Below the pieces are notes generated by a model. The model was not told the origin of the DNA. It made no database searches and saw only the letters and a program-made list of their open reading frames with translations. From NCBI GenBank assembly GCA_043822245.1, contig JBDRBY010000001.1, forward strand, positions 4,337 to 68,336: a stretch of 64,000 bases of DNA. The letters are read 5' to 3'. The first letter of the stretch is position 1. Each line of letters begins with the position of its first letter. The translations under genes were made by a program, and so were the position numbers. Source of the DNA: Candidatus Omnitrophota bacterium (GTDB lineage Bacteria; Omnitrophota; Gorgyraeia; Tantalellales; Tantalellaceae). Below are positions 4,007 to 35,559 of the stretch, piece by piece.

Positions 4007-4049
4007 ATTTCCCCTCTTTAGTTTAATTTTCGCCATTGACAACGAAACG

Positions 4050-4907
4050 TTACCTTTCAACCGCTATTAAGTATTCTTCAACACCGTCCGTCAAAATAAT
4101 TTTGTCTTGCTCTATTTTTTTGAGCGTGTACTCGCCTATCACGGAACCTTCCTTCACAACTTCACCTCCTACAATAGCTGTTGGAATCCCAGCGTTGTAG
4201 GTTATTCCTTCTAATTTTATGTCAATCTTAGCTTTTGTCGACTCCGGCCGTACTTTCGAAACAAAAATATCCCGCAGTTCATAAAAACCATCCTTCGTTT
4301 CTTTCGCCTTGAGCTGTTCAGAAAAGGGAACGTCGCCCAGCAGGCTCGATACCACGAGCTTGATTAAACTGTCAGACTCTTTTTTTCTTTTTTGAGGCTC
4401 TGAAATTTCCAATTCTTCTACCTTAAGGAATGGGGATATTGTTTCCACTTGCCGGATGTAATCGACAATTTCCGAAAAAGGCGCGTCAAACCGTATCTCG
4501 ACAAAAATACGGGAATATTCCTCTCCCTTGTCTATTTTCTGGCGTATCGAGTCTATTTTTATATCTTTCGCGAGCCGTGTAAGTTCGGCGATTAAGCGCG
4601 CTGTCGCGTTCTTACTAGGAAGTTTTTTTTCCATCGCCTCTATCTCTTCAAACAGTTCCGCGCCCCTGTTCTGTTCTTCTTCAATCCGTTCCCTGCCTGC
4701 CTGTATCTCCGGATGTTGAGCTTTTATCTGCTCGAATTGCTTTGTCAATCGTTCGGTTTGAGTTTTATATATAAGGAGATTCCCGGTCAAAGGCTTATAG
4801 ACCGCTCCATAATAAAGGATGACACCAAGAATCGCGGCAAAAGCCGTTACGGCAATCCTTTCCCTTTTACTCAAGCTTTTGTATTTTTCTATTATGTTTT
4901 TTCCCAT
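4050..4907 (-). CDS. pilO: Fused PilO-like (TM plus coiled coil) and PilP-like (C-terminal beta domain) pilus alignment protein
   Basis: Start refined to the internal ATG at 4907, 1 nt after the pilMN stop. An N-terminal TM helix is followed by a coiled coil typical of PilO. The C-terminal ~90 aa beta-rich segment sits just upstream of pilQ, as PilP does. Confidence 0.55.
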   Translation of the reverse strand: MGKNIIEKYKSLSKRERIAVTAFAAILGVILYYGAVYKPLTGNLLIYKTQTERLTKQFEQIKAQHPEIQAGRERIEEEQNRGAELFEEIEAMEKKLPSKNATARLIAELTRLAKDIKIDSIRQKIDKGEEYSRIFVEIRFDAPFSEIVDYIRQVETISPFLKVEELEISEPQKRKKESDSLIKLVVSSLLGDVPFSEQLKAKETKDGFYELRDIFVSKVRPESTKAKIDIKLEGITYNAGIPTAIVGGEVVKEGSVIGEYTLKKIEQDKIILTDGVEEYLIAVER

Positions 4908-4908
4908 G

Positions 4909-6774
4909 TTATTGGAATACCACCACCTCAAAGCTATAGACCTGCTTATCCTGCTCTTTTTGCGTGTAACTGAACTTCGCGTCTGAAAACACATCCGTCT
5001 CTTTTACCTTCTCTATAAGCTGAGTAATTAGTACCAGGTTAACAGTAGAACCGACTATCACAAATTTCCCTTCTTCATACTTCAGGCTGTTAACCCATAC
5101 CTCTTCCGGCAAAAGAGCCGCTATCGAACCAAGCATTTTTGAGACATCTACCGGATTTCTTTTCGCGTCGTTAAGAATCTTGAGCTGCGCCTCCAGTATT
5201 TTTTTCCGGTTAACCAATTCATTTTCTTCTTTGGCAAGGTTAATCCGCAAAATCTCATGTTTAGACAAATCAATTTTCGCTTTATCAACCTTTTTTGCCG
5301 ATTCTTCCATCCGCGATTTATAAAACCCTGCCGTTCCCGCCAAAAAACCGCTTAACACAATTGACACGACAAGTAACCCCGTTACTATCTGGACCGGCCG
5401 CTGCCTAAATGCTGTCCACAGAATTTTGAGCGGCTCCTGTCCCGATTCCGGTAGAAAATTCACTCTCCGGGTACTTGCTGCCTTTTGTCCGATAGAAAGC
5501 CCCGCGCCTATCGTAAAGAGGCCGGGTTCCGTTACCAGCACGGCCTTTTGTTTCTTCACACTTTCTAAAACCCTGAACACAGAGAACGGGTCAAAATACT
5601 CTACTGGAACACCTAATTTAACATTCAGAAATTTTTCCAAATTTTTCAGTTTCGCCCCGCCGCCGGATAAAATCACGCGGCTAAACCTCCTGACCTGAGA
5701 CTGCGCGACCTGAAACGAAAAATGCTTAAACAAAAGTTCTATTTCCACCACTAAATTCTCAAGCGCGGATACAAGCGCGTAATAAATCTGTTCCGAGCTG
5801 TCCTTCGATTTTTCAAACAACTCAACATTCCCGCCCAGAGGGGAGAATACTTTATCTTTCGACCAAAAACTAAAGCCATGTTCTTTCTTCAGTTCTTCAG
5901 CCTTTTCTTCGGAAACCCTGCACTGTTTGGCAATGTTCTTGTTTATTCGATCCGAAGTTAAAACAATCTCTTTGGAGAAACATAACGAACGGCTCTTGGA
6001 AACCGCCAAAAAACTTTCCTCCGCGCCTATGTGCACCCATAACTCCACATCCTCTTCATATTCGGACTGCTCATAAATACTGCTGAGGTTCACCAAGCCA
6101 AACTGCGGAGATTCAACGCTGACGGGCTTAAAACCCGCGGCTTCCAACAACGCGATGTGCCTGGCCAGGGCATCTTTGGAAACGCACGCGATAACCACTC
6201 TTTCTTGTGAAACACCTCCGGTATTTTCAGTGATTTTCCATTTTTTGAATTTGCACACCAATTTTGCCCAGCTCAATCCAAATGGTTTAAGCTGGGCAAT
6301 TTTGAACCGGATAGCGGATTCTAATTCTTCATCCGGCATAGGGGGAAACATCATATTGTAAATCTGGACATCCCGCGCGGATAAAGCCGTCACACACGCC
6401 GGGCCGGTATCATTGCGGCCTCTCAGAGCTACTAAAGCGTTTTTTGTCGCGGAAAAAGAATCCTTGACAGAGGGAGCGTCGTAAGGCTGGCTGTCAACAT
6501 TGATGATCTCAAATCTTTTCTTTTCATCCACACCCAAACGGATCATTTTCACAGCTCGGGAACCGATGTCTATAACCACAGGCAGAGGCTTTATATCTTT
6601 CATGTCCGAGAGTGCTTCCGCGAGCTCTTTTTTCGAAGAAGGCACGATTTTGCGGATGTTCTTGCTGTATGTAAAAATACTTGAAACACCTCCTGCCACG
6701 GCTTTCGGGCGGTCAAACACACTTTTTACCAGATCATCCGGCAAGGCATTTGGAGTCTTTTTGTTTTTATCCAT
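4909..6774 (-). CDS. pilM: Fused PilM (actin-like ATPase fold) and PilN (TM plus periplasmic domain) pilus assembly protein
   Basis: The N-terminal half carries PilM/FtsA-like motifs (VVIDIGSRAVKMIRLG...ILSGGGAKLKNLEKFL). It is followed by a TM helix (VTGLLVVSIVLSGFLAG), a coiled coil and a PilN-like C-terminus, and it overlaps the parA stop by 8 nt. Confidence 0.65.
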   Translation of the reverse strand: MDKNKKTPNALPDDLVKSVFDRPKAVAGGVSSIFTYSKNIRKIVPSSKKELAEALSDMKDIKPLPVVIDIGSRAVKMIRLGVDEKKRFEIINVDSQPYDAPSVKDSFSATKNALVALRGRNDTGPACVTALSARDVQIYNMMFPPMPDEELESAIRFKIAQLKPFGLSWAKLVCKFKKWKITENTGGVSQERVVIACVSKDALARHIALLEAAGFKPVSVESPQFGLVNLSSIYEQSEYEEDVELWVHIGAEESFLAVSKSRSLCFSKEIVLTSDRINKNIAKQCRVSEEKAEELKKEHGFSFWSKDKVFSPLGGNVELFEKSKDSSEQIYYALVSALENLVVEIELLFKHFSFQVAQSQVRRFSRVILSGGGAKLKNLEKFLNVKLGVPVEYFDPFSVFRVLESVKKQKAVLVTEPGLFTIGAGLSIGQKAASTRRVNFLPESGQEPLKILWTAFRQRPVQIVTGLLVVSIVLSGFLAGTAGFYKSRMEESAKKVDKAKIDLSKHEILRINLAKEENELVNRKKILEAQLKILNDAKRNPVDVSKMLGSIAALLPEEVWVNSLKYEEGKFVIVGSTVNLVLITQLIEKVKETDVFSDAKFSYTQKEQDKQVYSFEVVVFQ

Positions 6775-7666
6775 TTTTCACTTTTGTTCGCGCGACAACT
6801 TCCTCGGTCAACGCGGCGTAATCCTTCGCGCCCTTGGAAGATGGCTCGTAATCAAATATTGATTTCTTATTCGCCGCCGCCTCAGCCAGCGTAATGTTGA
6901 CCCTTATGACTGACCGAAAAACTTTATCTCCAAAGTATGATTTTAACTGTGAAAAGATAGTCCTATCCATCCTTGTCCGCTTGTTAAACAATGTGGGAAG
7001 TATCCCGAGTATCTCAAGATCGGAATTCAGCCTGCCTTTAATAATCTCGATTGTGGAAAAAAGTTCCCTCATACCCTCCAGCGCGAAGTAATGAGTCTGA
7101 ACGGGAACAAGAATAAATTTCGAAGCTACTATCCCGTTTATGGTCAAGAGGTTTAAAGATGGGGAACAATCAATCACAATATAGTCGTAGTGTTTGTTCC
7201 TCGTGTTTATCATTTTGTAAAGGGCGTTTCTTAAAATTCCTTCCCTGCCCAAAAGATCCGCGATTTCGAGCTGTGCCCCGCTGAGCATCGGGGTCGCAGG
7301 CACAAGGCTTAATCCCGCGCAGGAAGTTCCAACAATAGTTTTTTCCATGTCAATATTTTTGACAAGGACGTCGTAAATCGAACACTCTACGTCGTCCACT
7401 CTGACGCCTAACCCTAACGAAGCGTGAGACTGCGAATCTAAGTCTATGATGAGGACTTCAAAACCCCTCTTCGCCAAAGCCGCCGCGAGGTTAATCGCGG
7501 TTGTGGTTTTTCCGCATCCGCCTTTTCGATTAGCGACACAGATAACCGACGAATCTTTTTTTTCTTCTTTTTCTTCAAAACGCGGCAGGTTGATGTCGGG
7601 AAAGCCCGGAACCTGAAACCCTTTTTGTTTTTGTTCCCTGAACATTGATTTTATCTCATTGAGCAT
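6767..7666 (-). CDS. ParA/Soj/MinD-family P-loop ATPase (deviant Walker A KGGCGKTT) with a ~40-aa N-terminal extension, co-operonic with pilMNOPQ
   Basis: [28 protein letters not shown]...LIIDLDSQ. ATG at 7666 with a GGAGGTGGAG SD. The stop overlaps the pilMN start. Confidence 0.8.
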   Translation of the reverse strand: MLNEIKSMFREQKQKGFQVPGFPDINLPRFEEKEEKKDSSVICVANRKGGCGKTTTAINLAAALAKRGFEVLIIDLDSQSHASLGLGVRVDDVECSIYDVLVKNIDMEKTIVGTSCAGLSLVPATPMLSGAQLEIADLLGREGILRNALYKMINTRNKHYDYIVIDCSPSLNLLTINGIVASKFILVPVQTHYFALEGMRELFSTIEIIKGRLNSDLEILGILPTLFNKRTRMDRTIFSQLKSYFGDKVFRSVIRVNITLAEAAANKKSIFDYEPSSKGAKDYAALTEEVVARTKVKNG

Positions 7667-7684: not shown

Positions 7685-7921
7685 TTAAACGCTATAGCCT
7701 TTATCAAACCTTCGTTGTATAAGCCGCAGTGTATACCCCTCTTTTCTCATGTTTGTAATCGTGTCAAAGACGCTGCTAATCCCTTTTTTGTCGTACAGCC
7801 GCACGTTACCCTTGCGAACACCGACTTTGAAAAGCCCGATATTTGTGTAATAATTAATTGTCGCGACTGAAACCTTCAAATCTTTCGCCAGCTCTTTCGC
7901 TGTAACAAATTTTTCCAGCAC
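7685..7921 (-). CDS. Small MerR/excisionase-type HTH DNA-binding protein (~79 aa)
   Basis: HTH TAKELAKDLKVSVATINYYTNIGL followed by an LYD motif. The track ORF starts at a TTG (7939). An in-frame GTG at 7921 has the strong SD GGAGAGGAGGTGG and is preferred. It ends 18 nt before parA. Confidence 0.5.
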   Translation of the reverse strand: MLEKFVTAKELAKDLKVSVATINYYTNIGLFKVGVRKGNVRLYDKKGISSVFDTITNMRKEGYTLRLIQRRFDKGYSV

Positions 7922-8107
7922 GAGCCACCTCCTCTCCAATCATGTAAGCAAACAATTGTTTCAAAATGTCATTTTGAAGTGTACACAAAAACCAATGAAT
8001 AGTCAAGCCATTGTGTGTAATTATTTTAGCTCCGCTACATATTGTTTTTCAAAACAAACATCATGTTAGCATCTGTTAACGCATACGGTTGTTTCGTTGA
8101 TTGTTTT

Positions 8108-12038: not shown

Positions 12039-12986
12039 TTATCTGTTAAAGCAGGCGTCGACAAGATCTTCAAGCTTTGCTGTTGCTAAACACTGCACCG
12101 TGTCAGCTCCGCCGTAATAGATCTTTACTTCTCCCGTGTCTTCTAAAACCGCGCCGCATGTAAAGACTACCGCGTATGTAAGGCCGTTCAGTTCGTAATC
12201 CATACACGGGGAAAGTATCGGCGCTTTCGCGCGGGCAATTATTTTTGACGGATCTTTTAAATCAAGAAGCATAACTCCTAAGTGATAGACGTACTGCGCG
12301 GCACACTGCACGTTAACCGCGTGGTATATGACAAGCCACCCTTTGTTTGTCCGAATGGGCACGGCCCCGGGCCCGTTCTTTTTCCAACCCCATTCATCTT
12401 GTGTAGTGGCAACAGCCTTTGACTGCCCCCAATGTATCAAATCAGGAGAATATGATACCCATATGTATCCTTTTCCATCACCCGTGTTCGGACGATCAAG
12501 CCGGCAGTAAAAACCATTTACTTTTTCGGGAAAGAGAACCCCATTACGGTTATCTGTCTCTGAAATAAATCCTTTCCAGATAAACTGGCGCATATCCGGC
12601 GATTCCATAAGGCCAAGCCGGCATGAATGCCCGCTATGGCAGGCAAATACCAGATAATATTTGCCTTCAATCCTTGCCACTCTCGGGTCGTAGTACATAC
12701 CAGCGGTGTATTCTTTAAATTCATCCGTATCAGGCATTTTAATCGGTTCCGGGCGTAGTTTAAAATCGATACCGTTATCAGAATCCGCGGGCCAGATAAG
12801 CTGTTTCATGGAAGGAGTCTCCACACGGCATAGCATTACATATTTACCTTCAGGGGTTTTTATGCATCCGGAGTTGTACACTCCCTTCGCGGCGACTGGA
12901 ATATCATCTCTGGTGAGAATAGGATTTCCGGGATAACGAACAACAATATTTTCTTTATTTTTTGGGTAAATAACAGGCTGTGTCAT
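12039..12986 (-). CDS. Glycoside hydrolase family 130 (beta-mannoside/mannooligosaccharide phosphorylase-like)
   Basis: GH130/DUF377 five-bladed-propeller signature segments (GVYNSGCIK, LVFACHSG, GVMLLDLKDPSKIIARAKAPILSP); ~315 aa. Confidence 0.7.
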   Translation of the reverse strand: MTQPVIYPKNKENIVVRYPGNPILTRDDIPVAAKGVYNSGCIKTPEGKYVMLCRVETPSMKQLIWPADSDNGIDFKLRPEPIKMPDTDEFKEYTAGMYYDPRVARIEGKYYLVFACHSGHSCRLGLMESPDMRQFIWKGFISETDNRNGVLFPEKVNGFYCRLDRPNTGDGKGYIWVSYSPDLIHWGQSKAVATTQDEWGWKKNGPGAVPIRTNKGWLVIYHAVNVQCAAQYVYHLGVMLLDLKDPSKIIARAKAPILSPCMDYELNGLTYAVVFTCGAVLEDTGEVKIYYGGADTVQCLATAKLEDLVDACFNR

Positions 12987-13026: not shown

Positions 13027-14070
13027 CTATATTGTCAAAACAGAATCAACTGTGCCGAACGCATTTCTTTTCGCGGAAGGATTTTTGGGATCTCTTATCC
13101 ATTCTTCATCTACCAAAAACTTATACCGGTAAGTTCCTTTGTTTAAAATGAAATGAGCTGACCATTCCCCGTTTTCAAGCCTTGTCAATCTGCTTACTTC
13201 CGCCTTCTGCCACCCGTTAAAATCTCCAAGCACGTATACTCCCCCTGCCTCCGGAGCCTTAAACGCGAACTCATGGATAGCGGCCGAAGTATTCACGCCT
13301 TCGGCAGAGAGAATCTCACTCGTTAAATTGTAAAAATCCAAGGCAACGTTAGACTTACAATCAGTCTCAAATATTGTCCTGCCGACCTTGGCCGCTTCTC
13401 TTAATTTCATACTCACGCGCACTTTTGTTTTTAGCAGATATGGCCCCAGTTTGCGTATCGCGTCTTTTTCAAGTTCTCTTACAAACTTTGACCGATGGTC
13501 GTACATATTCATGACAAAAAAAATCGGCGGCCTTCTCCCTGTTTCCTTTTTTAAGAGCCCTGCCACGCGGTACACGCTGTTTATCCCATTAAACGAAAAG
13601 TAGCTCATATCCATCGGGACAACCATCATATCCGCGGCAAACATAGAATTGAGCGTGAGAAAACCAAAACTCGGAGGTGAATCAATTATCACATATTCGT
13701 ATTTTTCAAAAAACCGAGAAGCTAAAAGCCGGGACAGTATAGATGCCGCGCCTTTTACTGTTCCTAAATTAATTTCAGCCGCGCTCAGCATCATGTTTGC
13801 CGGAATGAACGAAAATTTTTCGCGGCCTGTTATAAGCATCTCTGCCACAGGAACATCCTTGCCGCTGAAGCGCGCTTTAAAAATATCGTAAGATGTTTTA
13901 CAATCAGAAGCCTTCTCGCTATATCCCAGAGCGAAAGTTGCGTGCGCCTGCGGGTCCAAATCTATCAGTAAAATCTCACTGCCAAACCGCGCGAGAGCCG
14001 CCGCGATATTCACCGCGAGTGTCGTTTTCCCACAGCCACCCTTTTGATTTGCAATTGATATGACCTTCAT
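13027..14070 (-). CDS. ParA/MinD-family ATPase fused to a C-terminal AMPK-beta-type glycogen-binding domain (CBM48)
   Basis: N-terminus [27 protein letters not shown]...LLIDLDPQ (deviant Walker A). The C-terminal ~80 aa ([53 protein letters not shown]) matches the AMPK1_CBM/CBM48 consensus (GSFNNW...Y.YKF.VDG.W..DP). SD is GAGGAG. Confidence 0.8.
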
Positions 14071-14233
14071 ATTGCTCCTCTTAGACCATTTTTTGGTATT
14101 GTCAAAAGTTTGTATCCGAATTTTTCTTAATCCTTCGCGTCTAAGACGGTCATCTAATATTAACCTTCATCCCCCTCAAACTTGTCATTGCAATCTCCGC
14201 GAAGCAATCTTATATTCTATCCCACCTTAAAAT

Positions 14234-14325
14234 TCTCCCTGGCCCCCTTTTTCAAAGGGGGGAACGTTCTGACGCTCTTTCAAAGCGCGGAAATATATCT
14301 GTCCTTTTTTCAAAAAAGAGAAGCG
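14234..14325 (+). repeat. CCCCCTTTTTCAAAGGGGGGAACGTTCTGAC hairpin repeat (locus 2) plus two degenerate following copies, in the divergent promoter region
   Basis: tccctggccccctttttcaaaggggggaacgttctgacgctctttcaaagcgcggaaa...tccttttttcaaaaaagagaa. Confidence 0.8.
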
Positions 14326-14492
14326 AAACTACTTCATTATTTTTTTCATAATTCTTTCATGTTATTTTTAACATTATCAATTTTTTAATTTGAAAGAAGT
14401 ATAGCACACGAAAATAAAAAGGGAAAGGCGTATTTTTTTTCATAGCCCCTACACAAAGAACAAATTATGTGGCATACTATGACTGAATTTTT

Positions 14493-15380
14493 ATGTTTAA
14501 CATTTTAAAAAACAAAAACACTAACGACCAGATAGATTTTGAATTGTCCCGGACCTACTTTAGAAACTTTTCAAAAGAATCTGACTTTCAAAATACTGAG
14601 TCAAATATTCCATCGACTAAAATCAATCGAGTAAAACAGGTTTTCTTTGGAGCCGCGATTTTCGCGGTCACCGCGGTTATTGTTTTCTTCGGGGTACATT
14701 TTTTAAAAAGCAAAAGTGTTATATTTGAAGTCAAGCTTAACGTCGCGGATAATGCCACAGAAACTCCCGAAGCGTCAGTCCTTTCTCCCGCTCCCGTAAT
14801 GCCGGAGATTGTGGAAAAACAAAAAAAAGAAGAACCTCAGGTAGTCTTCACCAACGGCAGATTCCTTTCCGGATTTGAAAAAACTCTCGAAGGCTGGGAA
14901 CTTCCTGAATGGACACTTCAAAAAAACTCATACTCCGCGTCCTCAATAGCCAGAAGTACCGCCTTCGCCAGCAAAGGAAACGCGAGCGTCGCGCTTTCCC
15001 TTAACTTTCCCGGGACAGAATGGACTAGAGCTCTCATTGAAAACGAAGAATACTTCAATTTTAAAGATTTTGACGTGATTTTAGTGGATATTTACCTGCC
15101 CAAAACGGCTCCACACCGATTGCGTGGAAGTTTTGTCTTCACCACGGGCGACTCTTGGACTTTTATGGAAATGGCGCGCGGCAGACGGCTAAAGCCGGGC
15201 CAATGGACAACGATCGCGGCAAATATATCAGCCGGCAGTACCGACTGGAAAAGTGCTCACATAGACGAAGCGTTTAGACAAGACATCCACAAAATCGCCT
15301 TAAAAATCGAATCTGTAAACGTCCCCTACTCCGGAAGTGTATACATCGACAATATTCGCGTCGCGACAATACAAAAATAG
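14493..15380 (+). CDS. Membrane-anchored hypothetical protein with a C-terminal CBM-like beta-sandwich domain (W/G-rich, CBM11/CBM35-like pattern)
   Basis: N-terminal cytoplasmic stretch, a TM helix (VFFGAAIFAVTAVIVFFGVHFL), then an extracytoplasmic domain with aromatic-rich motifs (EGWELPEW, GDSWTF, GQWTTI, GSVYIDNIRVA). This is one of three plus-strand genes. Confidence 0.35.
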   Translation: MFNILKNKNTNDQIDFELSRTYFRNFSKESDFQNTESNIPSTKINRVKQVFFGAAIFAVTAVIVFFGVHFLKSKSVIFEVKLNVADNATETPEASVLSPAPVMPEIVEKQKKEEPQVVFTNGRFLSGFEKTLEGWELPEWTLQKNSYSASSIARSTAFASKGNASVALSLNFPGTEWTRALIENEEYFNFKDFDVILVDIYLPKTAPHRLRGSFVFTTGDSWTFMEMARGRRLKPGQWTTIAANISAGSTDWKSAHIDEAFRQDIHKIALKIESVNVPYSGSVYIDNIRVATIQK

Positions 15381-15399
15381 CAATTACTTAGCGAAGGAA

Positions 15400-15435
15400 A
15401 AATCCCCCTCTGTCCCCCTTTTTCAAAGTGGGAAG
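15400..15435 (+). repeat. AAATCCCCCT-CCCCCTTTTTCAAAG(T)GGG hairpin repeat (locus 3, slightly degenerate) between convergent genes
   Basis: aaaatccccctctgtccccctttttcaaagtgggaagtcg. Confidence 0.75.
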
Positions 15436-15462: not shown

Positions 15463-16488
15463 TTATCCAAACAAATCATCCGCTTTGGCCTTTGAATTCG
15501 ATATTTCAGTTTTTTTTATCTCTTTGTCTGACCAAAGTTCTTCATTCTTGTCCTTGATAAAATATTTTCGGTTTTTCATGGAAACAAAACTGCTCCATGC
15601 CTGGCCCTCTTTGGATTGGGAAACTTGAATCTCTTTTACCGCGTTCGCCTGGGAAACAAGTTCATCTGTCTGATACACAATAGTCGCCTCAAGTGTCTTT
15701 GGAAGCACCGGCGACTGTTGTTCATACTCTCCGTGATGGCTTAAAATAATATGCTCTAAACGCAGGCGTAAATCATTAGGAAAATCCGGCACTTCCTGAA
15801 TTTTTTGACTGAGAATCCGATACCCGATGGCAATATGCCCTATGAGGCCGCCCTCAACGGTATATTCCATCTTTTTTATATCCAATTCGTACACCTTGCC
15901 TATATCATGTATAAATGCTCCAAAGATAGCCGCGTCTCTATCTGCTTCGGGATACAAAGAACACACGTTATCGACTATGAACATAACTTCATAGGTATGT
16001 TCCAAGAGGCCGCCGATATACGCGTTATGCCAATTTTTTGCCCCTATTCCATCTTTAAACAAAACCATTAGCTCTGTATCCCGGATAAAACATTCGGCTA
16101 ACCGGCTTATCCATGTGTTTTTTATGTTCTTCAAATAACCAATCACAAATCCAAAAAACGTATCCCGGTTTTCTGCCACACGCACCATATCTTCGTACCG
16201 AAACGCCCTTTCATCCGCTTTCACGATATGATCCACTTTCAATTGTTTCTCTTCACGATACTTATCCACCACACCCGTCACGCACACAACATCACCGGTA
16301 TCCGCGGCATCATTAAATTCTTCCGCGTTATCCCACAAACGGCCCTCTATTTTACCCGTTTTGTCTGAAAGAGTCATTTGGAGATACGGTTTGTCATATT
16401 TTGTCAATTTTAGTTCCTTTTTCCTAAGCATAAAAAAAGAATCTATTTTTTCGTTAACCTTAAAATCAGAAATAAATTTTTTGTCCAT
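15463..16488 (-). CDS. yhaM: YhaM-like 3'-5' exoribonuclease (N-terminal OB fold plus HD phosphohydrolase domain)
   Basis: OB-fold N-terminus (MTLSDKTGKIEGRLWD) and HD-domain motifs (FIHDIGKVYE...ILSHHGEYE); 341 aa. Confidence 0.65.
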   Translation of the reverse strand: MDKKFISDFKVNEKIDSFFMLRKKELKLTKYDKPYLQMTLSDKTGKIEGRLWDNAEEFNDAADTGDVVCVTGVVDKYREEKQLKVDHIVKADERAFRYEDMVRVAENRDTFFGFVIGYLKNIKNTWISRLAECFIRDTELMVLFKDGIGAKNWHNAYIGGLLEHTYEVMFIVDNVCSLYPEADRDAAIFGAFIHDIGKVYELDIKKMEYTVEGGLIGHIAIGYRILSQKIQEVPDFPNDLRLRLEHIILSHHGEYEQQSPVLPKTLEATIVYQTDELVSQANAVKEIQVSQSKEGQAWSSFVSMKNRKYFIKDKNEELWSDKEIKKTEISNSKAKADDLFG

Positions 16489-16599: not shown

Positions 16600-19500
16600 T
16601 TACCCCCAGCAAATTGAATCGTATTCGCATCTTGAGCATCTTTTCTTTTCGTCGCGCTCAGGTAATCTGTCGAATTTCAGCGCGCGTATATCTTTCCAGC
16701 ATCGAAGAATAACTGTTTCGAGTTCTTGGGTCATATCGTTCGTTAATTCAACTATTTCATTCCTGAAAATACCTTTTTCAAGGCCGTACTTTATAACGGT
16801 TGAACCTGCCGGCTCTAGAAATTGAATCATGCCTTTAGATATTTTTTCCCTTTTGCCATGCCCGGACGCCTTATCATACAACAATTTGTACGCTACAAGC
16901 TGGCGGTAATAATTATCACATTCATACGCGGAAATATCCCGCGAGTTGGCTATCGCCTTAACGTGATCGTCGGGTTTTCCCGTTTTATAATCAACTACTC
17001 TTACCGCCCCGCCGGGTTCTCTTTCAATTTTGTCAAACGCCCCTTTAAATATTAACCCTTCCGGAAGCTGAATCTCAAGTTTGTTTTCAAGATCAATCGG
17101 CATAAGAGGATCTTTTGAATCTTTCCGGTACCAATCTTTTATAGAAGTCTCCAGTTTGTGCCTGCACCAATTCTTTATCTGATCGTTTACTCCCTGAAAT
17201 TGCAATTCACGGTTAAATACCTTTTCGAAAAAATCAAAAGAAGGAAATTTTTTGTCTTTTATGAAAAGCGAATACAATTCTTCAAGCGCTTTGTGCGCGC
17301 AATTGCCAAATGTCAGATGCTGATTTTTTCTGCCGGGAAGCCTGAGGACATTATCATATAAAAATTTTCGGCCGCAGGAAATATAATTATTAAGGCTGGT
17401 CGGATTTAATGTTAAGTGCCGCACCATATCTTTCAAGATATGAGACGCGCCTTCAAATAAATCCCGGGGTTTACTCCCCGACAAGAACCGTATAAGAAAT
17501 TCTTCTTCTTCAAACGGAATAGTTTCAGCCTTTATATTCAAATTGCTTAAAAATTGAGTCGTTACCGCTTTTTCATGAAGCGCCGCGGTATAGATAAGAT
17601 GAGCCTTCGCGCGGGTAGAAACCACATAGAAAAGCCTTAGTTCGTCATAAACGCTTAACTCTTTTATCCGCTCTTTCTCTTTTACGCGCTGTTTACTCTT
17701 GTAAATTTCCGGCGGCAAAGGCACTGTGTCCGGTTTCCCGCGCACCGGCCAGCTTTCTCTTTGAAGGCAAAACGGCGCGAACACTGTATAAAACTCAAGC
17801 CCTTTTGCCGAGTGAGCGGTATACAGCCTTACGCCATCCTGGCTAAATGTGGCAAGCTCCCCCCGAAGCGGCATACCGTGAGTTTCACGTAAGCCAAGTT
17901 CCCATGTATATTTTTCCAGATTAAGGGCGGGGTCCGTCAAATCAGATTCCTTAATGCTATTTACAAAGGAACCTAACGCCCTTAAATCCCGTATACGAAG
18001 AAGTTTATCCTTTTCATAAGTACTAAGTATATAACGATGAAGATTCACATCGCTAATGTACCGCATAACAAGATCGTGCACAGGCCTTACCGCGCCATCG
18101 GTCATAAGCCTTGAGACAGCCCACGCGGCCATATGAAGAGCACGCGGATTTTTTAAATTCAAATTTTTTGTGATATCTAAAGCCTGGGAATCTTCTTCTT
18201 TCGGCGCGTTTTCATTATCAACAGGGAAACCAGATAAAAACTCTTGAAAAAAACCATAGTCGTTATATTTTTTTAGACCATTACTCAAAACAGCGCGTTT
18301 CCGCGCGCTCACCGATTCTATTATTTTAATAATGTCCGCGTGATTGGCGCGGATATAGTCCGAAGAAAGAACCTTATAAAGCACTGTTGATTTTCTGTCA
18401 TTTTCCCCGCCGAAGAGGCCGGCTAATTCCAACACGTCTAACATTTGCCGCACACGCTTCTCCGGGCGTATATCCTCTTTACCGTCAGTAGCGTAAGGAA
18501 TGCCCGCGCGAAGAAAGGCGTCTATCAATACCTGTATCTGCCGCCTCTTTCTTACAAGAACCGCTATGTTGTTATACGGCTTCGCCCGCTCGTCCAGAGA
18601 AAGATTTTCTTCCTGTGTTATGAATTCCGCCTGCCGTTTTATCTCCTGTGTTAAAAACGCGAGTTCTTCTTCTTTCGCGCTGAATTCTAAAAATCGTACC
18701 CCGTGTTTATCATAACTCCGGCACGACTGAAGGTTCTTCACCGAGAGCCTTTCTTCTTCAGAAAGCTGAGTTATAATCTTGTTAGAAAAGGTTATAATTT
18801 CAGGAGTTGACCGGTAATTAGATTTAAGTTCAATGGTATTGAGGCCTTTTACTTTTTCTTTTAGAGCGCGAAAATTCGCCAAACTCGCGCCCTGGAAACG
18901 GTATATCGCCTGATCATCGTCCCCCACACAGCAGACATTAGGCGCGTCATTTCCTATAACATAAAACAAAAGTTCAAGCTGGGCTCCATTTGTGTCCTGG
19001 AATTCATCAACCATTACGTACTTATACTGAGACCGAAACACATCCCTAAGAGTACTCTCCTTTTTAAGAGCGTCTATGGCGATAAGTATCATATCGTCAT
19101 AATCCATCCGCCCTCTTTGGTCAAAAAGTAACCCGCAATCTTCATTTTTAAGTTTTTCATAATTTTCATAGAGAAGAGCCAGCGCCTTAAGCCGCGGTAG
19201 GTTTTTCCCTTCAAGATTTATACCGTCAGGATGAAGGCCCGTTAACTGCCTTTTAAATTCATCAGGCCGGATACCTTCATTTTTCAATTCACTTATGCGT
19301 TTTTCGATCTCCTGCCGGTGAATATACGGCGCTCCAAAAGGCCTTAAGGGCTCTACGCCTTTAACATTGTCAATAATGTATTCCAGAGCTCTTATCTTTT
19401 CGATTTCACCTATTTCTATCTTTTCTTTGATATATTCAACCGCGCTTTCAGATTCCAGAACAATGGAATTCGCGAAACTGTGAAATGTTTCAACATCAAG

Positions 19501-19764
19501 GTTGTAACCATCAGGGCCGATAATCTCAGAGAGCCTCTCCCGCATAGCGACGCGGGCGGCATTTGAAAAAGTCAGTATGAGGATATTTTCCGGACGCGCC
19601 TTTTTACTTTGAATGATATTCGCGGCACGGATAGAAAGCAGTTGTGTTTTGCCCGTACCCGGGCCCGCCAAAACAAGGAGCGCGCCTTCAGTCATATCAA
19701 CTGCCTGGCGCTGTTCGCTGTTAAGACGCTCGTAATGCTCCTTGAACAAATCCATTCGCTTCAT
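16600..19764 (-). CDS. UvrD/PcrA-family SF1 helicase fused to a C-terminal PD-(D/E)xK (RecB/Cas4-like) nuclease with a 4-Cys cluster (AddA-like architecture)
   Basis: Walker A LVLAGPGTGKTQLL with UvrD motifs through ~aa 700. The C-terminus has DYKTGKP...QLVAYKLLY and CSRCEYDSIC. The start is chosen at the ATG at 19764 (Met7 of the track ORF, whose first codon is TTG). Confidence 0.75.
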   Translation of the reverse strand: MKRMDLFKEHYERLNSEQRQAVDMTEGALLVLAGPGTGKTQLLSIRAANIIQSKKARPENILILTFSNAARVAMRERLSEIIGPDGYNLDVETFHSFANSIVLESESAVEYIKEKIEIGEIEKIRALEYIIDNVKGVEPLRPFGAPYIHRQEIEKRISELKNEGIRPDEFKRQLTGLHPDGINLEGKNLPRLKALALLYENYEKLKNEDCGLLFDQRGRMDYDDMILIAIDALKKESTLRDVFRSQYKYVMVDEFQDTNGAQLELLFYVIGNDAPNVCCVGDDDQAIYRFQGASLANFRALKEKVKGLNTIELKSNYRSTPEIITFSNKIITQLSEEERLSVKNLQSCRSYDKHGVRFLEFSAKEEELAFLTQEIKRQAEFITQEENLSLDERAKPYNNIAVLVRKRRQIQVLIDAFLRAGIPYATDGKEDIRPEKRVRQMLDVLELAGLFGGENDRKSTVLYKVLSSDYIRANHADIIKIIESVSARKRAVLSNGLKKYNDYGFFQEFLSGFPVDNENAPKEEDSQALDITKNLNLKNPRALHMAAWAVSRLMTDGAVRPVHDLVMRYISDVNLHRYILSTYEKDKLLRIRDLRALGSFVNSIKESDLTDPALNLEKYTWELGLRETHGMPLRGELATFSQDGVRLYTAHSAKGLEFYTVFAPFCLQRESWPVRGKPDTVPLPPEIYKSKQRVKEKERIKELSVYDELRLFYVVSTRAKAHLIYTAALHEKAVTTQFLSNLNIKAETIPFEEEEFLIRFLSGSKPRDLFEGASHILKDMVRHLTLNPTSLNNYISCGRKFLYDNVLRLPGRKNQHLTFGNCAHKALEELYSLFIKDKKFPSFDFFEKVFNRELQFQGVNDQIKNWCRHKLETSIKDWYRKDSKDPLMPIDLENKLEIQLPEGLIFKGAFDKIEREPGGAVRVVDYKTGKPDDHVKAIANSRDISAYECDNYYRQLVAYKLLYDKASGHGKREKISKGMIQFLEPAGSTVIKYGLEKGIFRNEIVELTNDMTQELETVILRCWKDIRALKFDRLPERDEKKRCSRCEYDSICWG

Positions 19765-19830
19765 TTTAACCTTTATTAACAAAAATTACTCTTTAAGACT
19801 TTTGCGCGACAATCGGGATTATCGCAACTC

Positions 19831-19898
19831 TTAAATCCCCCTGGCCCCCTTTTTCAAAGGGGGGATGGATTGAAATAAGGGAGCTAGGGGGATTTAAG
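19831..19898 (+). repeat. Most complete copy of the hairpin repeat family: leader TTAAATCCCCCTGG + CCCCCTTTTTCAAAGGGGGG + inverted leader CTAGGGGGATTTAA (MITE-like, with terminal inverted repeats)
   Basis: cttaaatccccctggccccctttttcaaaggggggatggattgaaataagggagctagggggatttaag. Confidence 0.85.
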
Positions 19899-25622: not shown

Positions 25623-25958
25623 TTTTGATTTTACATTTTCAAGATTGTCGGGGATATTACAGGTCCCCTTACAAATGGGGGGTGGCAAAACGTTAAAAAT
25701 AAAATAGTCAGTCTCTTGACCTTGCTATTTTTACTTTTATGGTTCATACTTGATACATAGAGTAATAATGACGTGTTCTTTCATATTGCTTAAGTTCCAT
25801 CAAACGATAAAGGCAAACTATTCGAAAGAATAGGGCTGCAATGTCATGAGCCTAAATCCCCTTTTGGGGACATGGTCGTCAGACTGCCGAATTTGACTCC
25901 TTTGGATTTTCATCTCAATCTGACTTTTTTGCGGCCCTACTGTTTAAGGCGGGGAGAG

Positions 25959-27011
25959 ATGAAACTCTTAAGGAAAAATTCAAATTTAATTATTTTTTTT
26001 GTTCTAGCTGTTTTTTTCTCATCGATTATCTCCTGCCCTTCAATTTCCTTAAGTTCCGAAATAGACTTTTTGCCTATGCAAAAAGGCATGTGTTACGTGA
26101 CGTGGGATAAAAACAAGTTTTCTTCCTATTACTCGGATGAGTCTTTAGAAAAATTAGTATCAATGGGTGTCGAATATGTATCAATAACTCCAACCCATTA
26201 CCAGGAAAGTTTTGCCTCTACTGATATAAAAAGCACGGACCAAACTACCTCTATCTCGAGTTTAATCCATGCGATAAAAAAATCTCACGCGCTCGGCTTA
26301 AAGGTTATGATAAAGCCGCACATTGATCTTATTGACAAGTATGACGGCACTTATTGGCGCGCGGACATCGGATTTTCTAATGAAAAAGACTGGCAAAAAT
26401 GGTTCACTGGATATAAAAAACTAATGAATTCCTACGCGAGCATATGTGAAAAACATAATGTCGAACTCTTCTGCGTGGGCACAGAGCTCGCTTTTGCCGC
26501 GCAAAAAACCTCTGAATGGCGTATCATCATAAGCTCAATAAGAGGAATATATTCCGGCAGGCTTGTATACGCGGCAAACTGGGATAATTTCAAAAATATC
26601 GGATTTTGGGATGACTTGGATTATATCGGCATAAACGCTTTTTTCCCTCTTTCGCAAAAAACAAATCCAAGTTTAGAAGATTTAAAAAACGGATGGAATA
26701 AGTGGAAACAAGACCTCCAACTATGGCAGGGGAATCTTAAAAAACCGATTATCTTCACAGAAATAGGTTATCCCAGCATCTGGCACGCGCCAAATTCTCC
26801 GTGGCAAAACCCTGGAAGCGGGAATTGCGACTTAATTATTCAGGCGAAATGTTACAAAGCTTTTTTTGAAACCATCTGGACAGAGCCATGGCTCGCGGGG
26901 GTGTACTGGTGGAAGTGGGATACGAATATCCACGCGGGAGGAAAAAATAACCGTAATTTTACGCCGCAGAATAAACCCGCGCAGGAAATCATAGAGGCTC
27001 ATTACAAATGA
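25959..27011 (+). CDS. Secreted clan GH-A glycoside hydrolase, GH113/GH5-like (putative beta-mannanase)
   Basis: Signal peptide from the internal ATG 25959 (MKLLRKNSNLIIFFVLAVFF, GGGGAGAG SD). Candidate catalytic glutamates are in VGTELAF and IFTEIGYP, with GH-A spacing. Assignment to a specific family is tentative. Confidence 0.5.
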   Translation: MKLLRKNSNLIIFFVLAVFFSSIISCPSISLSSEIDFLPMQKGMCYVTWDKNKFSSYYSDESLEKLVSMGVEYVSITPTHYQESFASTDIKSTDQTTSISSLIHAIKKSHALGLKVMIKPHIDLIDKYDGTYWRADIGFSNEKDWQKWFTGYKKLMNSYASICEKHNVELFCVGTELAFAAQKTSEWRIIISSIRGIYSGRLVYAANWDNFKNIGFWDDLDYIGINAFFPLSQKTNPSLEDLKNGWNKWKQDLQLWQGNLKKPIIFTEIGYPSIWHAPNSPWQNPGSGNCDLIIQAKCYKAFFETIWTEPWLAGVYWWKWDTNIHAGGKNNRNFTPQNKPAQEIIEAHYK

Positions 27012-35229: not shown

Positions 35230-35559
35230 TTATACATTCATCTTCTCAGCCCATTCGCCAATAATCGGTATTCTCCATTTATTCCCCATGAGAACCTGCA
35301 CTATCGCGATAAGGGAAATGAGGCCGAAAATGAGCACGCCTAATGTATAAATCAGCGGGCCAAAAATTGGTATAATACTGATTATTCCGACTCCCACTTC
35401 AATAATAAAAAGCATAAGACCCTGCCGGCTGTGAAAGCGGACAAACTCATCGTTTTTTTTCATTAAAACAGGTATAAGGCACAATACCCACAGATACGAG
35501 AGTACAGCATACACACTGCCGCTTGAAGCGGATTTTAACGGTTTTTCTTCTGTCATCAT
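35230..35559 (-). CDS. DUF4870-family small membrane protein
   Basis: VLSYLWVLCLIPVLMKKNDEFVRFHSRQGLML pattern; 109 aa. Confidence 0.5.
   Translation of the reverse strand: MMTEEKPLKSASSGSVYAVLSYLWVLCLIPVLMKKNDEFVRFHSRQGLMLFIIEVGVGIISIIPIFGPLIYTLGVLIFGLISLIAIVQVLMGNKWRIPIIGEWAEKMNV

What the first reader, a model, noticed from the sequence alone, without database searches (positions are those of the whole stretch)
13027..14070. ParA/MinD ATPase fused to an AMPK-beta-type glycogen-binding domain (CBM48), next to a GH130 phosphorylase
The N-terminal 260 aa are a canonical ParA-type deviant-Walker-A ATPase. The last ~80 aa match the AMPK1_CBM/CBM48 starch- and glycogen-binding consensus (GDFNGW...[15 protein letters not shown]). 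ParA-like ATPases position cargo on the nucleoid (plasmids, carboxysomes, chemoreceptor arrays, PHB granules). A direct fusion to a polysaccharide-binding module suggests a dedicated system for positioning or segregating glycogen or alpha-glucan granules, or for tethering a polysaccharide-bound complex. Its promoter region carries the same ~300-bp repeat-rich upstream module as the pilus-associated coiled-coil gene.
Basis: partly seen in the sequence, partly recalled or inferred. Interest (0 to 1): 0.75.

Follow-up and report, generated by a model that had tools for sequence, protein, structure and literature searches.

The report
ParA ATPase with glycogen-binding domain
A cargo-positioning ATPase of the ParA type carries a built-in glycogen-binding module and always sits beside a partner gene with a conserved short peptide, so it may be the first dedicated system for placing or tethering glycogen in a bacterial cell, but no experiment has tested this.

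Summary
ORF 13027-14070 (-) encodes 347 aa: a complete ParA/Soj-type deviant-Walker-A ATPase joined by about 7 residues to an AMPK-beta-type CBM48 (Pfam E 1.2e-11). It is not a chimera. The same architecture occurs in over 100 protein clusters at 50% identity and in at least 78 species genomes, mostly Candidatus Omnitrophota, one copy per genome sampled.

All ATPase motifs are invariant in 169 members. So are the two tryptophans that bind glycogen in AMPK beta. The CBM's nearest non-ParA relatives sit in GH13 amylases and pullulanases.

It is a small partner protein with an 'ELAxTYFG' peptide. Here it is the divergent gene 14493-15380: cytoplasmic N-terminal peptide, one membrane helix, external CBM27-like domain.

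GH130 adjacency holds only in this lineage (18 of 24 loci). The shared upstream module is a roughly 290-bp repeat element inserted in this genome, absent from the closest relative.

A second, more Soj-like ParA lies 5.4 kb away, so this one is an extra, specialised ParA.

Best reading (about 0.4): ATP-dependent, two-handed binding of alpha-glucan particles, controlled by the partner peptide. I found no paper describing it. It is a new variant of a known kind.

The parts
13027..14070 (-). ParA-CBM48 gene, 347 aa plus stop codon
   Evidence: ORF; Pfam AAA_31 + AMPK1_CBM/CBM_48; 100% match to a Candidatus Omnitrophota MAG protein named 'AAA family ATPase'; AF2 model pLDDT 88.4, pTM 0.87.
13306..14070 (-). 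ParA/Soj-type ATPase domain (aa 1-255): deviant Walker A K10-GGCG-K15-T16, D37/D39, Walker B D130
   Evidence: K10, K15, D37, D39 and D130 are invariant in 169 of 169 family members. Foldseek: Soj structures TM 0.87-0.92 over the target, rmsd about 2 A, then McdA. Basic residues R198, R218/K222 and K239 align at or next to the HpSoj DNA-binding lysines K199, K227/K230 and K247.
13030..13284 (-). CBM48 / AMPK-beta-type glycogen-binding domain (aa 263-347), all beta
   Evidence: Pfam. The HMMER alignment to rat AMPK beta-1 CBM gives W287=W100, K317=K126, W324=W133, F338=L146, T340=T148. These are the carbohydrate-contact residues. W287 is kept in 169/169 members, W324 in 166/169, and position 317 is K or R in 165/169.
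14493..15380 (+). Partner gene, divergent, 295 aa: bitopic membrane protein with an external CBM27-like domain
   Evidence: No Pfam hit for this copy. 162 homologues, those named by a source being Omnitrophota, some called 'glycan-binding surface protein', with precomputed Pfam Mann_GBD_bact/CBM27/SGBP_B_XBD. It sits divergently upstream of ParA-CBM48 in every locus of this type that has upstream sequence. It is homologous to the co-directional upstream partners of the other locus types (hhalign probabilities 84.5-97.8%).
14526..14561 (+). Conserved N-terminal peptide of the partner (aa 12-23, DQIDFELSRTYF); candidate contact site for ParA-CBM48
   Evidence: D12 and F23 are invariant; I14, D15, E17, L18 and Y22 are at least 90% conserved in 48 sequences. 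AF2 predicts a short helix at 13-23. The same motif type occurs in three other partner families, including an unrelated one where it is C-terminal.
14628..14711 (+). Transmembrane helix of the partner (aa 46-73)
   Evidence: AF2 helix 46-73 with pLDDT above 90. The best 19-mer has mean hydropathy 2.5 in 48 homologues. K+R counts are 4.5 on the N side against 2.5 on the C side, with N greater than C in 37 of 48, so the N-terminus is predicted cytoplasmic.
14847..15371 (+). CBM27-like beta-sandwich domain of the partner (aa 119-293), predicted extracytoplasmic
   Evidence: pLDDT 95-98. Best Foldseek PDB hits are the CBM of alkaline mannanase 1wky (E 4e-9) and the mannan-binding CBM27s 1of3 and 1pmh (E 1e-8), then CBM28 and CBM11.
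12039..12986 (-). GH130 beta-mannoside phosphorylase-type gene, 40 bp downstream; a lineage-specific neighbour
   Evidence: Pfam E 2.1e-46. Closest solved relatives are TM1225 (1e-58), a beta-1,4-mannooligosaccharide phosphorylase (1e-46) and UhgbMP (3e-45). Hydrolase-type GH130 structures score only 1e-12 to 1e-8. Present in 18 of 24 loci of this type and in no other type.
14091..14380 (.). Inserted repeat element of about 290 bp between the partner and ParA-CBM48; second copy at 1971-2268
   Evidence: blastn and alignment. Absent from the orthologous 133-bp intergenic region of the closest relative, L086. Orthologous divergent intergenic regions have a median of 190 bp, against 422 bp here.

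Best explanation
This is a two-gene ParA-type positioning module whose ATPase binds alpha-glucan (glycogen) directly.

Shown: the protein is a complete Soj-like deviant-Walker-A ATPase with a C-terminal CBM48 that keeps the AMPK-beta glycogen-contact residues. It is always encoded next to a partner protein that carries a conserved 'ELAxTYFG' peptide. In Omnitrophota that peptide lies on the predicted cytoplasmic N-terminal tail of a single-pass membrane protein, whose CBM27-like domain is predicted to face outwards.

Inferred: ATP binding makes the usual sandwich dimer, which presents two CBM48 modules. Each module binds weakly on its own; two together hold a glycogen particle firmly. This mirrors how the two C-terminal membrane helices of a MinD dimer hold the membrane. 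The dimer's other face may bind the nucleoid through Soj-like basic residues. The partner peptide then docks on the dimer and either triggers ATP hydrolysis and release or anchors the complex at the membrane.

The net effect would be to hold, spread or partition glycogen particles relative to the nucleoid and to membrane sites marked by the partner.
For: Domain architecture and motifs.

Family-wide invariance of the catalytic residues and of W287/W324/K317 in 169 members. These map onto AMPK beta-1 W100/W133/K126, whose mutation abolishes glycogen binding.

The best non-ParA matches to the CBM part of the profile are multi-CBM48 proteins, three of which carry GH13 alpha-amylase or pullulanase domains.

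In the 11 type-C loci a GH57 alpha-glucan enzyme gene lies just before the partner in 6, and within a few genes in 3 others, including the complete chromosome L082.

Glycogen synthesis genes are reported in most Ace Lake Omnitrophota MAGs.

A partner gene lies within two genes in 68 of 83 loci, plus 1 more and a fragment found by six-frame search; most of the other misses are contig edges. It is often translationally coupled (median gap 3.5 bp, with several 4-bp overlaps).

The same peptide motif occurs in four partner families, one of them unrelated in fold and placement.

A separate, more canonical Soj-like ParA is in the same window (8ray ParA E 2e-58 and Thermus Soj 3e-53, against 1.7e-28 and 9e-29 for this protein), and no ParB is nearby.

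Basic residues sit at or next to the HpSoj DNA-binding positions in this subfamily.

The family is chromosomal; the C-terminal 122 aa give no plasmid or phage matches.
Against: No binding or localisation experiment exists.

The Soj-like basic positions are only moderately conserved across the family: 111, 104, 105 and 56 of 169. Nucleoid binding is therefore uncertain.

In classical ParA systems the adaptor binds the cargo, not the ATPase, so a cargo-binding ATPase would be unusual.

The model does not explain why the partner is a membrane protein with an external glycan-binding domain.

Candidatus Aadella gelida has the fusion (P0043), but its 91%-complete MAG is listed with trehalose synthesis and not glycogen synthesis.

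No GH57 homologue was found in the 64-kb window, and no glycogen-synthesis gene among the ORFs that were annotated, which is only part of the window.
Confidence: 0.4

Rival explanations
1. The cargo is the membrane glycan-binding partner, not glycogen. The ParA ATPase distributes or localises this surface protein, for example to a pole or attachment site. The CBM48 acts as an AMPK-like sensor: binding of glycogen or malto-oligosaccharide reports carbon status and tunes the ATPase cycle.
For: The partner is the only universally conserved neighbour, and its peptide is predicted to be cytoplasmic. In AMPK this same domain is regulatory, not merely a tether. Other ParA/MinD relatives position envelope machines (BcsQ, FlhG, TadZ; established knowledge). 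In 4 loci a short secretin-domain gene follows the ATPase, and the window holds a pilMNO-secretin cluster headed by another ParA.
Against: In Syntrophales and related lineages the partner is a small protein with no membrane helix and an FN3-like look on reading the sequence (no Pfam hit). A membrane cargo is therefore not general. The CBM48 with its sugar-binding residues is the constant feature.
Confidence: 0.25
2. The CBM48 does not bind carbohydrate here. Its tryptophan platform is the receptor for the aromatic T-Y-F-G peptide of the partner, with aromatic side chains mimicking sugar rings. The fusion is then simply a ParA with a built-in adaptor-docking domain.
For: The CBM48 and a Y-[FL]-G peptide co-occur strictly across four otherwise different partner families. 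Both are the most conserved elements of their proteins.
Against: Polar sugar-contact positions are also conserved: K/R at position 317 in 165/169 and D/N at position 342 in 160/169. The closest relatives of this CBM are attached to alpha-glucan-active GH13 enzymes. Known ParA-family partners (ParB, MinE, McdB) dock on the ATPase dimer, not on an appendage (established knowledge).
Confidence: 0.12
3. It is the ordinary chromosome-partitioning ParA (Soj) of this organism, and the extra domain has little consequence.
For: The ATPase domain's closest solved relatives are chromosomal Soj proteins. In one locus type the gene lies two genes before mnmG/gidA (identified by reading the sequence), a common origin-region neighbour.
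Against: No ParB-type gene is adjacent in any of 83 loci, and no ParB-box motif occurs in the window. A second ParA 5.4 kb away is far more Soj-like (E 2e-58 against 1.7e-28 to the same structure). NCBIfam partition-ATPase models score well below their cut-offs (105 bits against 180). The CBM48 residues are under strong constraint.
Confidence: 0.05
4. The fusion is an assembly or gene-calling artefact.
For: None found.
Against: The same architecture is seen on hundreds of independent contigs from NCBI, JGI, ENA and Logan, including a complete 1.82-Mb chromosome. The linker length is conserved and the AF2 model is confident across the junction.
Confidence: 0.01

Closest known systems
Chromosomal ParA/Soj (Helicobacter pylori Soj 6IUB/6IUC; Thermus thermophilus Soj 1WCV/2BEK)
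   Same: Same fold (TM 0.87-0.92 over the target, rmsd about 2 A), deviant Walker A with the signature lysine, no N-terminal HTH extension, and basic residues at or next to the nsDNA-binding positions.
   Different: About 28-32% identity in the Foldseek alignments. No parB or parS nearby. It has a C-terminal CBM48 and a different, peptide-bearing partner. A better Soj homologue exists in the same window.
MinD (with MinE)
   Same: A ParA/MinD-family ATPase whose C-terminal appendage confers surface binding that depends on dimerisation, and whose partner acts through a short helix-forming peptide. This is an analogy from established knowledge. The appendage is in the same C-terminal position here.
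   Different: The appendage is an 85-aa carbohydrate-binding domain, not an amphipathic membrane helix. There are no minC or minE neighbours. In sequence the ATPase is closer to Soj than to MinD.
McdA/McdB carboxysome positioning (6NON/6NOP)
   Same: A ParA-type ATPase dedicated to a non-DNA cytoplasmic body. McdA is the next-best structural match after Soj.
   Different: In McdAB the adaptor McdB binds the cargo and McdA binds only the nucleoid. Here the ATPase itself carries the putative cargo-binding module.
AMPK/SNF1 beta-subunit carbohydrate-binding module (CBM48; 1Z0M, 4YEF)
   Same: Best sequence match to the C-terminal domain (E 1.5e-8). W100, K126, W133 and T148 are conserved, with L146 replaced by F.
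   Different: The domain is attached to a P-loop ATPase, not a kinase scaffold. N150 is replaced by D, and the family has D or N there.
BcsQ-BcsR, and FlhG with the FliM/FliY N-terminal peptide
   Same: ParA/MinD-family ATPases that organise envelope or polysaccharide machinery and recognise small partners or short N-terminal peptides (from memory; BcsQ structures appear among the Foldseek hits; Pfam CBP_BcsQ E 2.1e-7).
   Different: No cellulose-synthase or flagellar genes are in any locus. Any resemblance between the peptides is superficial and was not tested.
CBM27 mannan-binding modules (TmCBM27 1OF3, CsCBM27-1 1PMH) for the partner's external domain
   Same: Best structural matches together with a mannanase CBM (E 4e-9 to 4e-8). 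Faint Pfam CBM27 and Mann_GBD_bact hits occur in homologues.
   Different: TM only 0.53-0.59 over the target and 13-19% identity. The window copy has no Pfam hit. It is attached to a membrane anchor and a cytoplasmic peptide rather than to an enzyme.

Membership tests
ParA/MinD (deviant Walker A) ATPase superfamily | Deviant Walker A KGGxxK[ST] with the N-terminal signature lysine | tested here: met
   NQK10GGCGK15T16 is present; K10 and K15 are invariant in 169/169 members.
ParA/MinD (deviant Walker A) ATPase superfamily | Walker A' aspartates and Walker B aspartate; Soj/MinD fold | tested here: met
   D37, D39 and D130 are invariant. AAA_31 E 7.6e-44. Foldseek TM 0.87-0.92 to Soj.
ParA/MinD (deviant Walker A) ATPase superfamily | ATP-dependent dimerisation, with ATPase activity stimulated by a partner | not testable with these tools
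   A candidate partner and peptide were found. Activity needs biochemistry.
Chromosomal ParABS partition system (Soj-Spo0J) | Adjacent parB gene and parS sites | tested here: not met
   No ParB-like neighbour in 83 loci. No GERRxRA ParB-box motif in any window ORF. NCBIfam ParA_partition scores 105 bits against a cut-off of 180.
Chromosomal ParABS partition system (Soj-Spo0J) | Basic residues for non-specific DNA binding (HpSoj K199, K227, K230, K247) | tested here: inconclusive
   R198, R218/K222 and K239 align at or beside these positions in this protein. Family-wide the positions are basic in only 111, 104, 105 and 56 of 169 members.
MinD | C-terminal amphipathic membrane-targeting helix; minC/minE partners | tested here: not met
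   The C-terminus is a beta-sandwich CBM48. No min genes are in the loci. MinD NCBIfam models score 43-49 bits against cut-offs of about 200.
CBM48 / AMPK1_CBM glycogen-binding module | Profile match above the curated threshold | tested here: met
   AMPK1_CBM 45.1 bits against 26.8; CBM_48 23.0 bits against 22.4.
CBM48 / AMPK1_CBM glycogen-binding module | Carbohydrate-contact residues (AMPK beta-1 W100, K126, W133, L146, T148) | tested here: met
   W287, K317, W324, F338 and T340 align to them. W287 is kept in 169/169, W324 in 166/169, and position 317 is K or R in 165/169. The L146 and T148 positions vary.
CBM48 / AMPK1_CBM glycogen-binding module | Demonstrated binding of glycogen or alpha-1,4/1,6-glucan | not testable with these tools
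   Needs pull-down or ITC. The indirect support is that the nearest non-ParA relatives sit in GH13 amylases and pullulanases.
GH130 beta-mannoside phosphorylase (neighbouring gene) | GH130 profile match, and closer to phosphorylase-type than hydrolase-type members | tested here: met
   Pfam E 2.1e-46. Phosphorylases score 1e-58 to 1e-27, hydrolase-type structures 1e-12 to 1e-8. NCBIfam equivalog cut-offs are not reached, so substrate specificity is unassigned.
GH130 as a functional partner of ParA-CBM48 | Conserved linkage across the ParA-CBM48 family | tested here: not met
   Adjacent in 18 of 24 loci of this lineage and in none of about 58 other loci.
CBM27 (partner's external domain) | Profile or fold match to mannan-binding CBM27 | tested here: inconclusive
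   Fold-level match (E about 1e-8, TM 0.53-0.59 over the target). Only weak or faint Pfam hits in homologues and none for the window copy. Ligand unknown.

The most novel reading that the evidence does not exclude
This would be the first dedicated system for positioning a storage polysaccharide: a ParA/MinD-type ATPase that uses glycogen itself as cargo or as its binding matrix, through dimer-dependent two-handed CBM48 binding. It is wired through a conserved cytoplasmic peptide to a membrane protein whose glycan-binding domain faces outwards. The module would then physically or regulatorily link glycan capture at the cell surface to glycogen particles inside ultra-small Omnitrophota cells.
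Probability: 0.3. Interest if true: 0.85.

Novelty: new variant of a known kind. Interest (0 to 1): 0.66.

Why it matters
ParA/MinD ATPases are the general bacterial solution for placing large objects such as chromosomes, plasmids, carboxysomes, chemoreceptor arrays and flagella. No system is known for glycogen, the most widespread bacterial carbon store.

Here the ATPase carries the glucan-binding module itself, so the hypothesis is directly testable with purified protein and with expression in a foreign host. The partner peptide gives a defined second handle. It is a 12-residue motif shared by four otherwise different partner families.

The module is single-copy in every genome sampled and widespread in Omnitrophota, a large uncultured phylum of very small, possibly host-dependent cells. 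It is also present in Syntrophales-type Desulfobacterota. If the membrane partner really links an external glycan-binding domain to an internal glycogen-binding ATPase, that would be a kind of trans-envelope organisation not described before.

Tried and rejected
**Assembly chimera.** Rejected.

**GH130 as the partner.** Rejected as a general feature.

**The upstream module as a conserved promoter.** Rejected. It is a lineage-specific insertion. The promoter scan was no better than shuffles (6 found, 3.3 expected), there were no terminator-like sites, and no Rfam family lies in the intergenic region.

**Plasmid or phage origin.** The C-terminal 122 aa gave no tblastn match in 72,556 plasmids or 50,697 phage records.

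**Single-sequence search with the partner.** It found only 3 proteins. A profile of 16 locus-derived sequences was needed to reach 162.

**AFDB50 fold search for named relatives.** The library was unavailable.

**Literature.** Ten full-text searches with combinations of ParA, MinD, CBM48, AMPK1_CBM, glycogen-binding domain, glycogen granules and Omnitrophota found no paper on this fusion.

**Model coordinates.** They are not exposed, so I could not check whether the CBM48 sugar site is solvent-exposed or how the domain packs on the ATPase.

**Paralogy.** All 80 genome loci come from different assemblies, so the locus types look like orthologues in rearranged contexts rather than paralogues.
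Full report
**What is there.** The minus-strand ORF 13027-14070 encodes 347 aa. Pfam gives AAA_31 (aa 1-176, E 7.6e-44) and CbiA. At aa 276-345 it gives AMPK1_CBM (E 1.2e-11, 45.1 bits against a cut-off of 26.8), with CBM_48 just above its cut-off. The PDB sequence search matches chromosomal Soj proteins over aa 2-254 (HpSoj E 3.9e-30) and the AMPK beta-1 carbohydrate-binding module over aa 277-346. An AlphaFold2 model built on 31 homologues is confident (pLDDT 88.4, pTM 0.87). It shows an alpha/beta ATPase domain up to residue 255, a roughly 7-residue linker and an all-beta domain at 263-346. Foldseek places the ATPase domain next to Soj (TM 0.87-0.92, rmsd about 2 A), then McdA. No solved structure covers both domains. 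A GH130 gene follows 40 bp downstream.

**Not a chimera, and not rare.** The identical protein is in an NCBI MAG of Candidatus Omnitrophota, named only 'AAA family ATPase'. About 100 clusters of 56-85% identity share the 347-348 aa architecture on independent contigs up to 746 kb. A further group at 38-42% identity has it too. A profile search of 1.8 billion representatives at 50% identity returned more than 100 full-length two-domain proteins among the best 150, and the list was still running at 246 bits. A scan of one genome per GTDB species with a C-terminal profile confirmed 370 stretches. Of the best 80 loci, 78 are ParA-CBM48 fusions. Most are Omnitrophota, some labelled Planctomycetia. 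A minority are Syntrophales, Syntrophorhabdales or Thermodesulfobacteriota on megabase contigs, and one is a complete 1.82-Mb Omnitrophota chromosome. All 80 loci come from different assemblies, so the gene looks single-copy.

**Are both domains functional?** I aligned 169 distinct family members. The signature and catalytic residues K10, K15, D37, D39 and D130 are invariant. The HMMER alignment to rat AMPK beta-1 CBM maps W287, K317, W324, F338 and T340 onto W100, K126, W133, L146 and T148. McBride et al. 2009 (PMC2642990) report that these residues contact the carbohydrate and that mutating them markedly reduces glycogen binding. Family-wide, W287 is kept in 169/169 and W324 in 166/169. Position 317 is K or R in 165/169, and position 342 (AMPK N150) is D or N in 160/169. 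The best non-ParA matches to the profile are multi-CBM48 proteins, three of which carry GH13 alpha-amylase or pullulanase catalytic domains. This CBM subfamily therefore sits among alpha-glucan binders. The four HpSoj lysines that bind non-specific DNA are K199, K227, K230 and K247 (Chu et al., PMC6393308). They align at or beside R198, R218/K222 and K239 here. Across the family those positions are basic in only 33-66% of members. Nucleoid binding is plausible for this subfamily but not secure.

**It is an extra ParA.** A second deviant-Walker-A ATPase lies 5.4 kb away (6767-7666, minus strand, 299 aa). It is much closer to Soj: E 2e-58 to 8ray and 3e-53 to Thermus Soj, against 1.7e-28 and 9e-29 for the fusion. 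No ORF in the window has a ParB-box motif, and none of the 83 loci has a ParB-like neighbour. NCBIfam has no model that claims the protein. The C-terminal 122 aa have no match in the plasmid or phage collections.

**The conserved neighbourhood.** I called ORFs in 85 loci and clustered them. The loci fall into four types.

- **Type A** (orthologues of the window gene): UvrD-nuclease, OB-HD, a 122-aa protein, then a divergent gene for a roughly 270-340-aa protein, ParA-CBM48, usually GH130, RF-1, Smr, SNF transporter, and further on PC4, PilZ and the dcw cluster.
- **Type B**: purL, purQ, a roughly 240-aa protein, ParA-CBM48, then LOG and MnmG, or an M48 peptidase.
- **Type C**: an AlgE-like porin, a GH57 enzyme, a roughly 195-aa protein, ParA-CBM48.
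- **Type D** (Syntrophales and relatives): ParA-CBM48 followed by a 170-aa protein.

GH130 is present in 18 of 24 type-A loci and nowhere else, so it is a lineage-specific neighbour. The gene that is always there is the small one.

**The partner.** The three Omnitrophota small proteins are homologous in their C-terminal domain (hhalign probabilities 84.5, 96.7 and 97.8%). Their HMMs, with that of the type-D protein, find a partner within two genes in 68 of 83 loci. Six-frame search adds one more and a fragment, and most of the remaining misses are contig edges. In type B the partner's stop and the ATPase's start are a median of 3.5 bp apart, with several 4-bp overlaps.

The window's partner is 14493-15380 (+), 295 aa, with no Pfam hit. 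A profile search found 162 homologues; those named by a source are Omnitrophota. They are labelled hypothetical, 'glycan-binding surface protein' or, wrongly, mannanase, with precomputed Mann_GBD_bact, CBM27 and SGBP_B_XBD hits. The AF2 model on 48 sequences shows a short helix at 13-23, a disordered basic stretch, a confident membrane helix at 46-73, a disordered linker, and a beta-sandwich at 119-293 with pLDDT 95-98. The sandwich's best PDB matches are a mannanase CBM and the mannan-binding CBM27s, then CBM28 and CBM11. The positive-inside rule puts the N-terminus in the cytoplasm: K+R counts are 4.5 against 2.5, with N greater than C in 37 of 48 sequences.

**A shared peptide.** The most conserved part of the partner outside the sandwich is aa 12-23, D-x-I-D-x-E-L-S-[RK]-T-Y-F. 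D12 and F23 are invariant, and I14, D15, E17, L18 and Y22 are at least 90% conserved. Type B partners have Q-E-E-L-A-[KD]-[TI]-Y-F-S near the N-terminus. Type C partners have Y-[DE]-H-L-A-[QK]-[VTI]-Y-L-G. The type-D partner has no membrane helix and no Pfam hit; by eye its N-terminal half looks FN3-like. It carries N-E-E-L-[VG]-N-A-Y-L-G near its C-terminus in 9 of 9 members. By my rough estimate, a loose regular expression for this motif would occur by chance in a 170-aa protein about 2 times in 10,000. I therefore read 'ELAxTYFG' as the element that couples partners to the ATPase. Whether it docks on the ATPase dimer or on the CBM48 could not be tested.

**How it most likely works.**

- *Shown:* a complete Soj-like ATPase; a CBM48 with constrained glycogen-contact residues; an obligate partner with a conserved peptide that is predicted cytoplasmic.
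- *Inferred:* ATP makes a sandwich dimer that presents two CBM48s, giving firm two-handed binding to glycogen particles. This is analogous to the two membrane helices of a MinD dimer. The opposite face may bind the nucleoid. The partner peptide triggers hydrolysis and release, or anchors the complex at the membrane.

The model accounts for the one constant of the family, the CBM48. It also fits GH57 lying just before the partner in 6 of the 11 type-C loci and within a few genes in three others, including the complete genome. Most Ace Lake Omnitrophota MAGs are reported to encode glycogen synthesis. Three things count against it. The ATPase, rather than the adaptor, would hold the cargo. The external glycan-binding domain of the partner is left unexplained. 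Candidatus Aadella gelida has the fusion but is listed with trehalose synthesis only. I put the model at about 0.4.

**Rivals.** The partner may be the cargo, with the CBM48 acting as an AMPK-like carbon sensor (0.25). The CBM48 may be the receptor for the aromatic peptide (0.12). The protein may be an ordinary Soj (0.05). It may be an artefact (0.01).

**The upstream repeat.** The 422-bp region between the partner and the ATPase contains a block, 14091-14380, that matches 1971-2268. That second copy lies upstream of a TPR/coiled-coil gene at the end of the pilM/N-pilO-secretin cluster. In both copies the proximal 39 bp end about 20 bp before the start codon. The element includes a 28-bp-period hairpin unit, present three times in tandem at 2080-2164 and once exactly at 14245-14273. 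The closest relative (85% identical protein, locus L086) has only 133 bp here. Its sequence aligns to the two flanks of the window's region and skips the block. Orthologous divergent intergenic regions have a median of 190 bp. The module is therefore a repeat element inserted in this lineage. It might still co-regulate the two genes, but it is not part of the ancestral system.

**A mannan theme in the window.** GH130 is of the beta-mannoside phosphorylase type. The partner's external domain resembles mannan-binding modules. A c-di-GMP-I riboswitch (25802-25891, 66 bits) sits directly before a GH113 gene, which belongs to a beta-mannanase family. This may explain why GH130 settled next to the module in this lineage. 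It does not bear on the family as a whole.

**Novelty.** The parts are known: ParA, CBM48 and a CBM27-like fold. The architecture is visible in databases under generic names. Ten full-text searches found no description of the fusion, its partner or the peptide. I class it as a new variant of a known kind, and as a well-posed experimental target.

Noticed in passing
window 6767-7666 (-), with 7685-7939, 4909-6774, 4050-4994, 2282-4060, 840-1985 and 1-780: A second ParA (299 aa, much more Soj-like: E 2e-58 to 8ray) heads a cluster of a PilM-PilN fusion, PilO, a secretin and a TPR/coiled-coil protein. A MerR-type gene lies upstream and a T2SS-F/PilC-type gene downstream. This ParA may be the chromosomal Soj or a pilus-positioning ATPase. 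No ParB-box motif was found in the window.
   Followed up: partly
window 25802-25891 (+) and 25872-27011 (+): A c-di-GMP-I riboswitch (Rfam 66.2 bits against a threshold of 35) lies directly upstream of a GH113 gene (a beta-mannanase family; Pfam E 2.5e-60). This suggests c-di-GMP control of a mannan-degrading enzyme. The listed ORF start overlaps the aptamer, so the true start is probably further downstream.
   Followed up: partly
window 14091-14380 and 1971-2268; short hairpin copies near 15399-15432, 19830-19865 and 38492-38600: A repeat element of about 290 bp is present at least twice. Each copy ends about 20 bp before the start codon of a minus-strand gene. It contains a hairpin unit of 28-bp period (CCCCCTTTTTCAAAGGGGGG...). 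It is absent from the orthologous site in the closest relative. Isolated hairpin units occur in other intergenic regions. Its nature (MITE-like, REP-like or regulatory) is unknown.
   Followed up: partly
loci L004, L005, L064 (and possibly L050): In a few distant ParA-CBM48 loci the gene is followed directly by a short (about 290 aa) protein with Secretin_N and Secretin domains. In L004/L005 it is preceded by very large proteins without Pfam hits (2423, 509 and 976 aa).
   Followed up: no
proteins P0121 (1812 aa), P0240, P0241, P0266: These proteins consist largely of tandem AMPK1_CBM/CBM48 repeats: 15-16 Pfam stretches in P0121, or 18 stretches of this family's profile. They have no catalytic domain. 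P0237 combines six such repeats with TPR repeats. Their role is unknown.
   Followed up: partly
protein search with alignment A4, e.g. P0317, P0329, P0362: Omnitrophota genomes also encode many shorter (about 190-245 aa) paralogues of the partner's CBM27-like domain that lack the N-terminal peptide region. Some lie in the same assemblies as a full-length partner (locus-tag prefixes HQL30, U9R44, ABH883). One is mis-annotated as mannan endo-1,4-beta-mannosidase.
   Followed up: no
window 35735-37198 (-), 35230-35559 (-), 34472-35224 (-): An AlgE-like (Alginate_exp) outer-membrane porin and a DUF4870 membrane protein lie here. In other Omnitrophota these two flank ParA-CBM48 together with GH57, but here they are 21 kb away from it. 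A DUF3047 gene is next to them. No GH57 homologue was found in the window.
   Followed up: partly
whole window: GC skew is negative in every 2-kb bin, and cumulative skew falls steadily to -5.7. Nearly all long ORFs are on the minus strand. This fits a window that lies within one replichore, with genes co-oriented with replication.
   Followed up: no
window 16600-19782 (-) and 15463-16488 (-): A 1060-aa UvrD-type helicase fused to a PD-(D/E)XK nuclease (AddA/PcrA-like) and an OB-fold plus HD-domain protein lie next to the partner gene. They keep this position in nearly all type-A loci.
   Followed up: no
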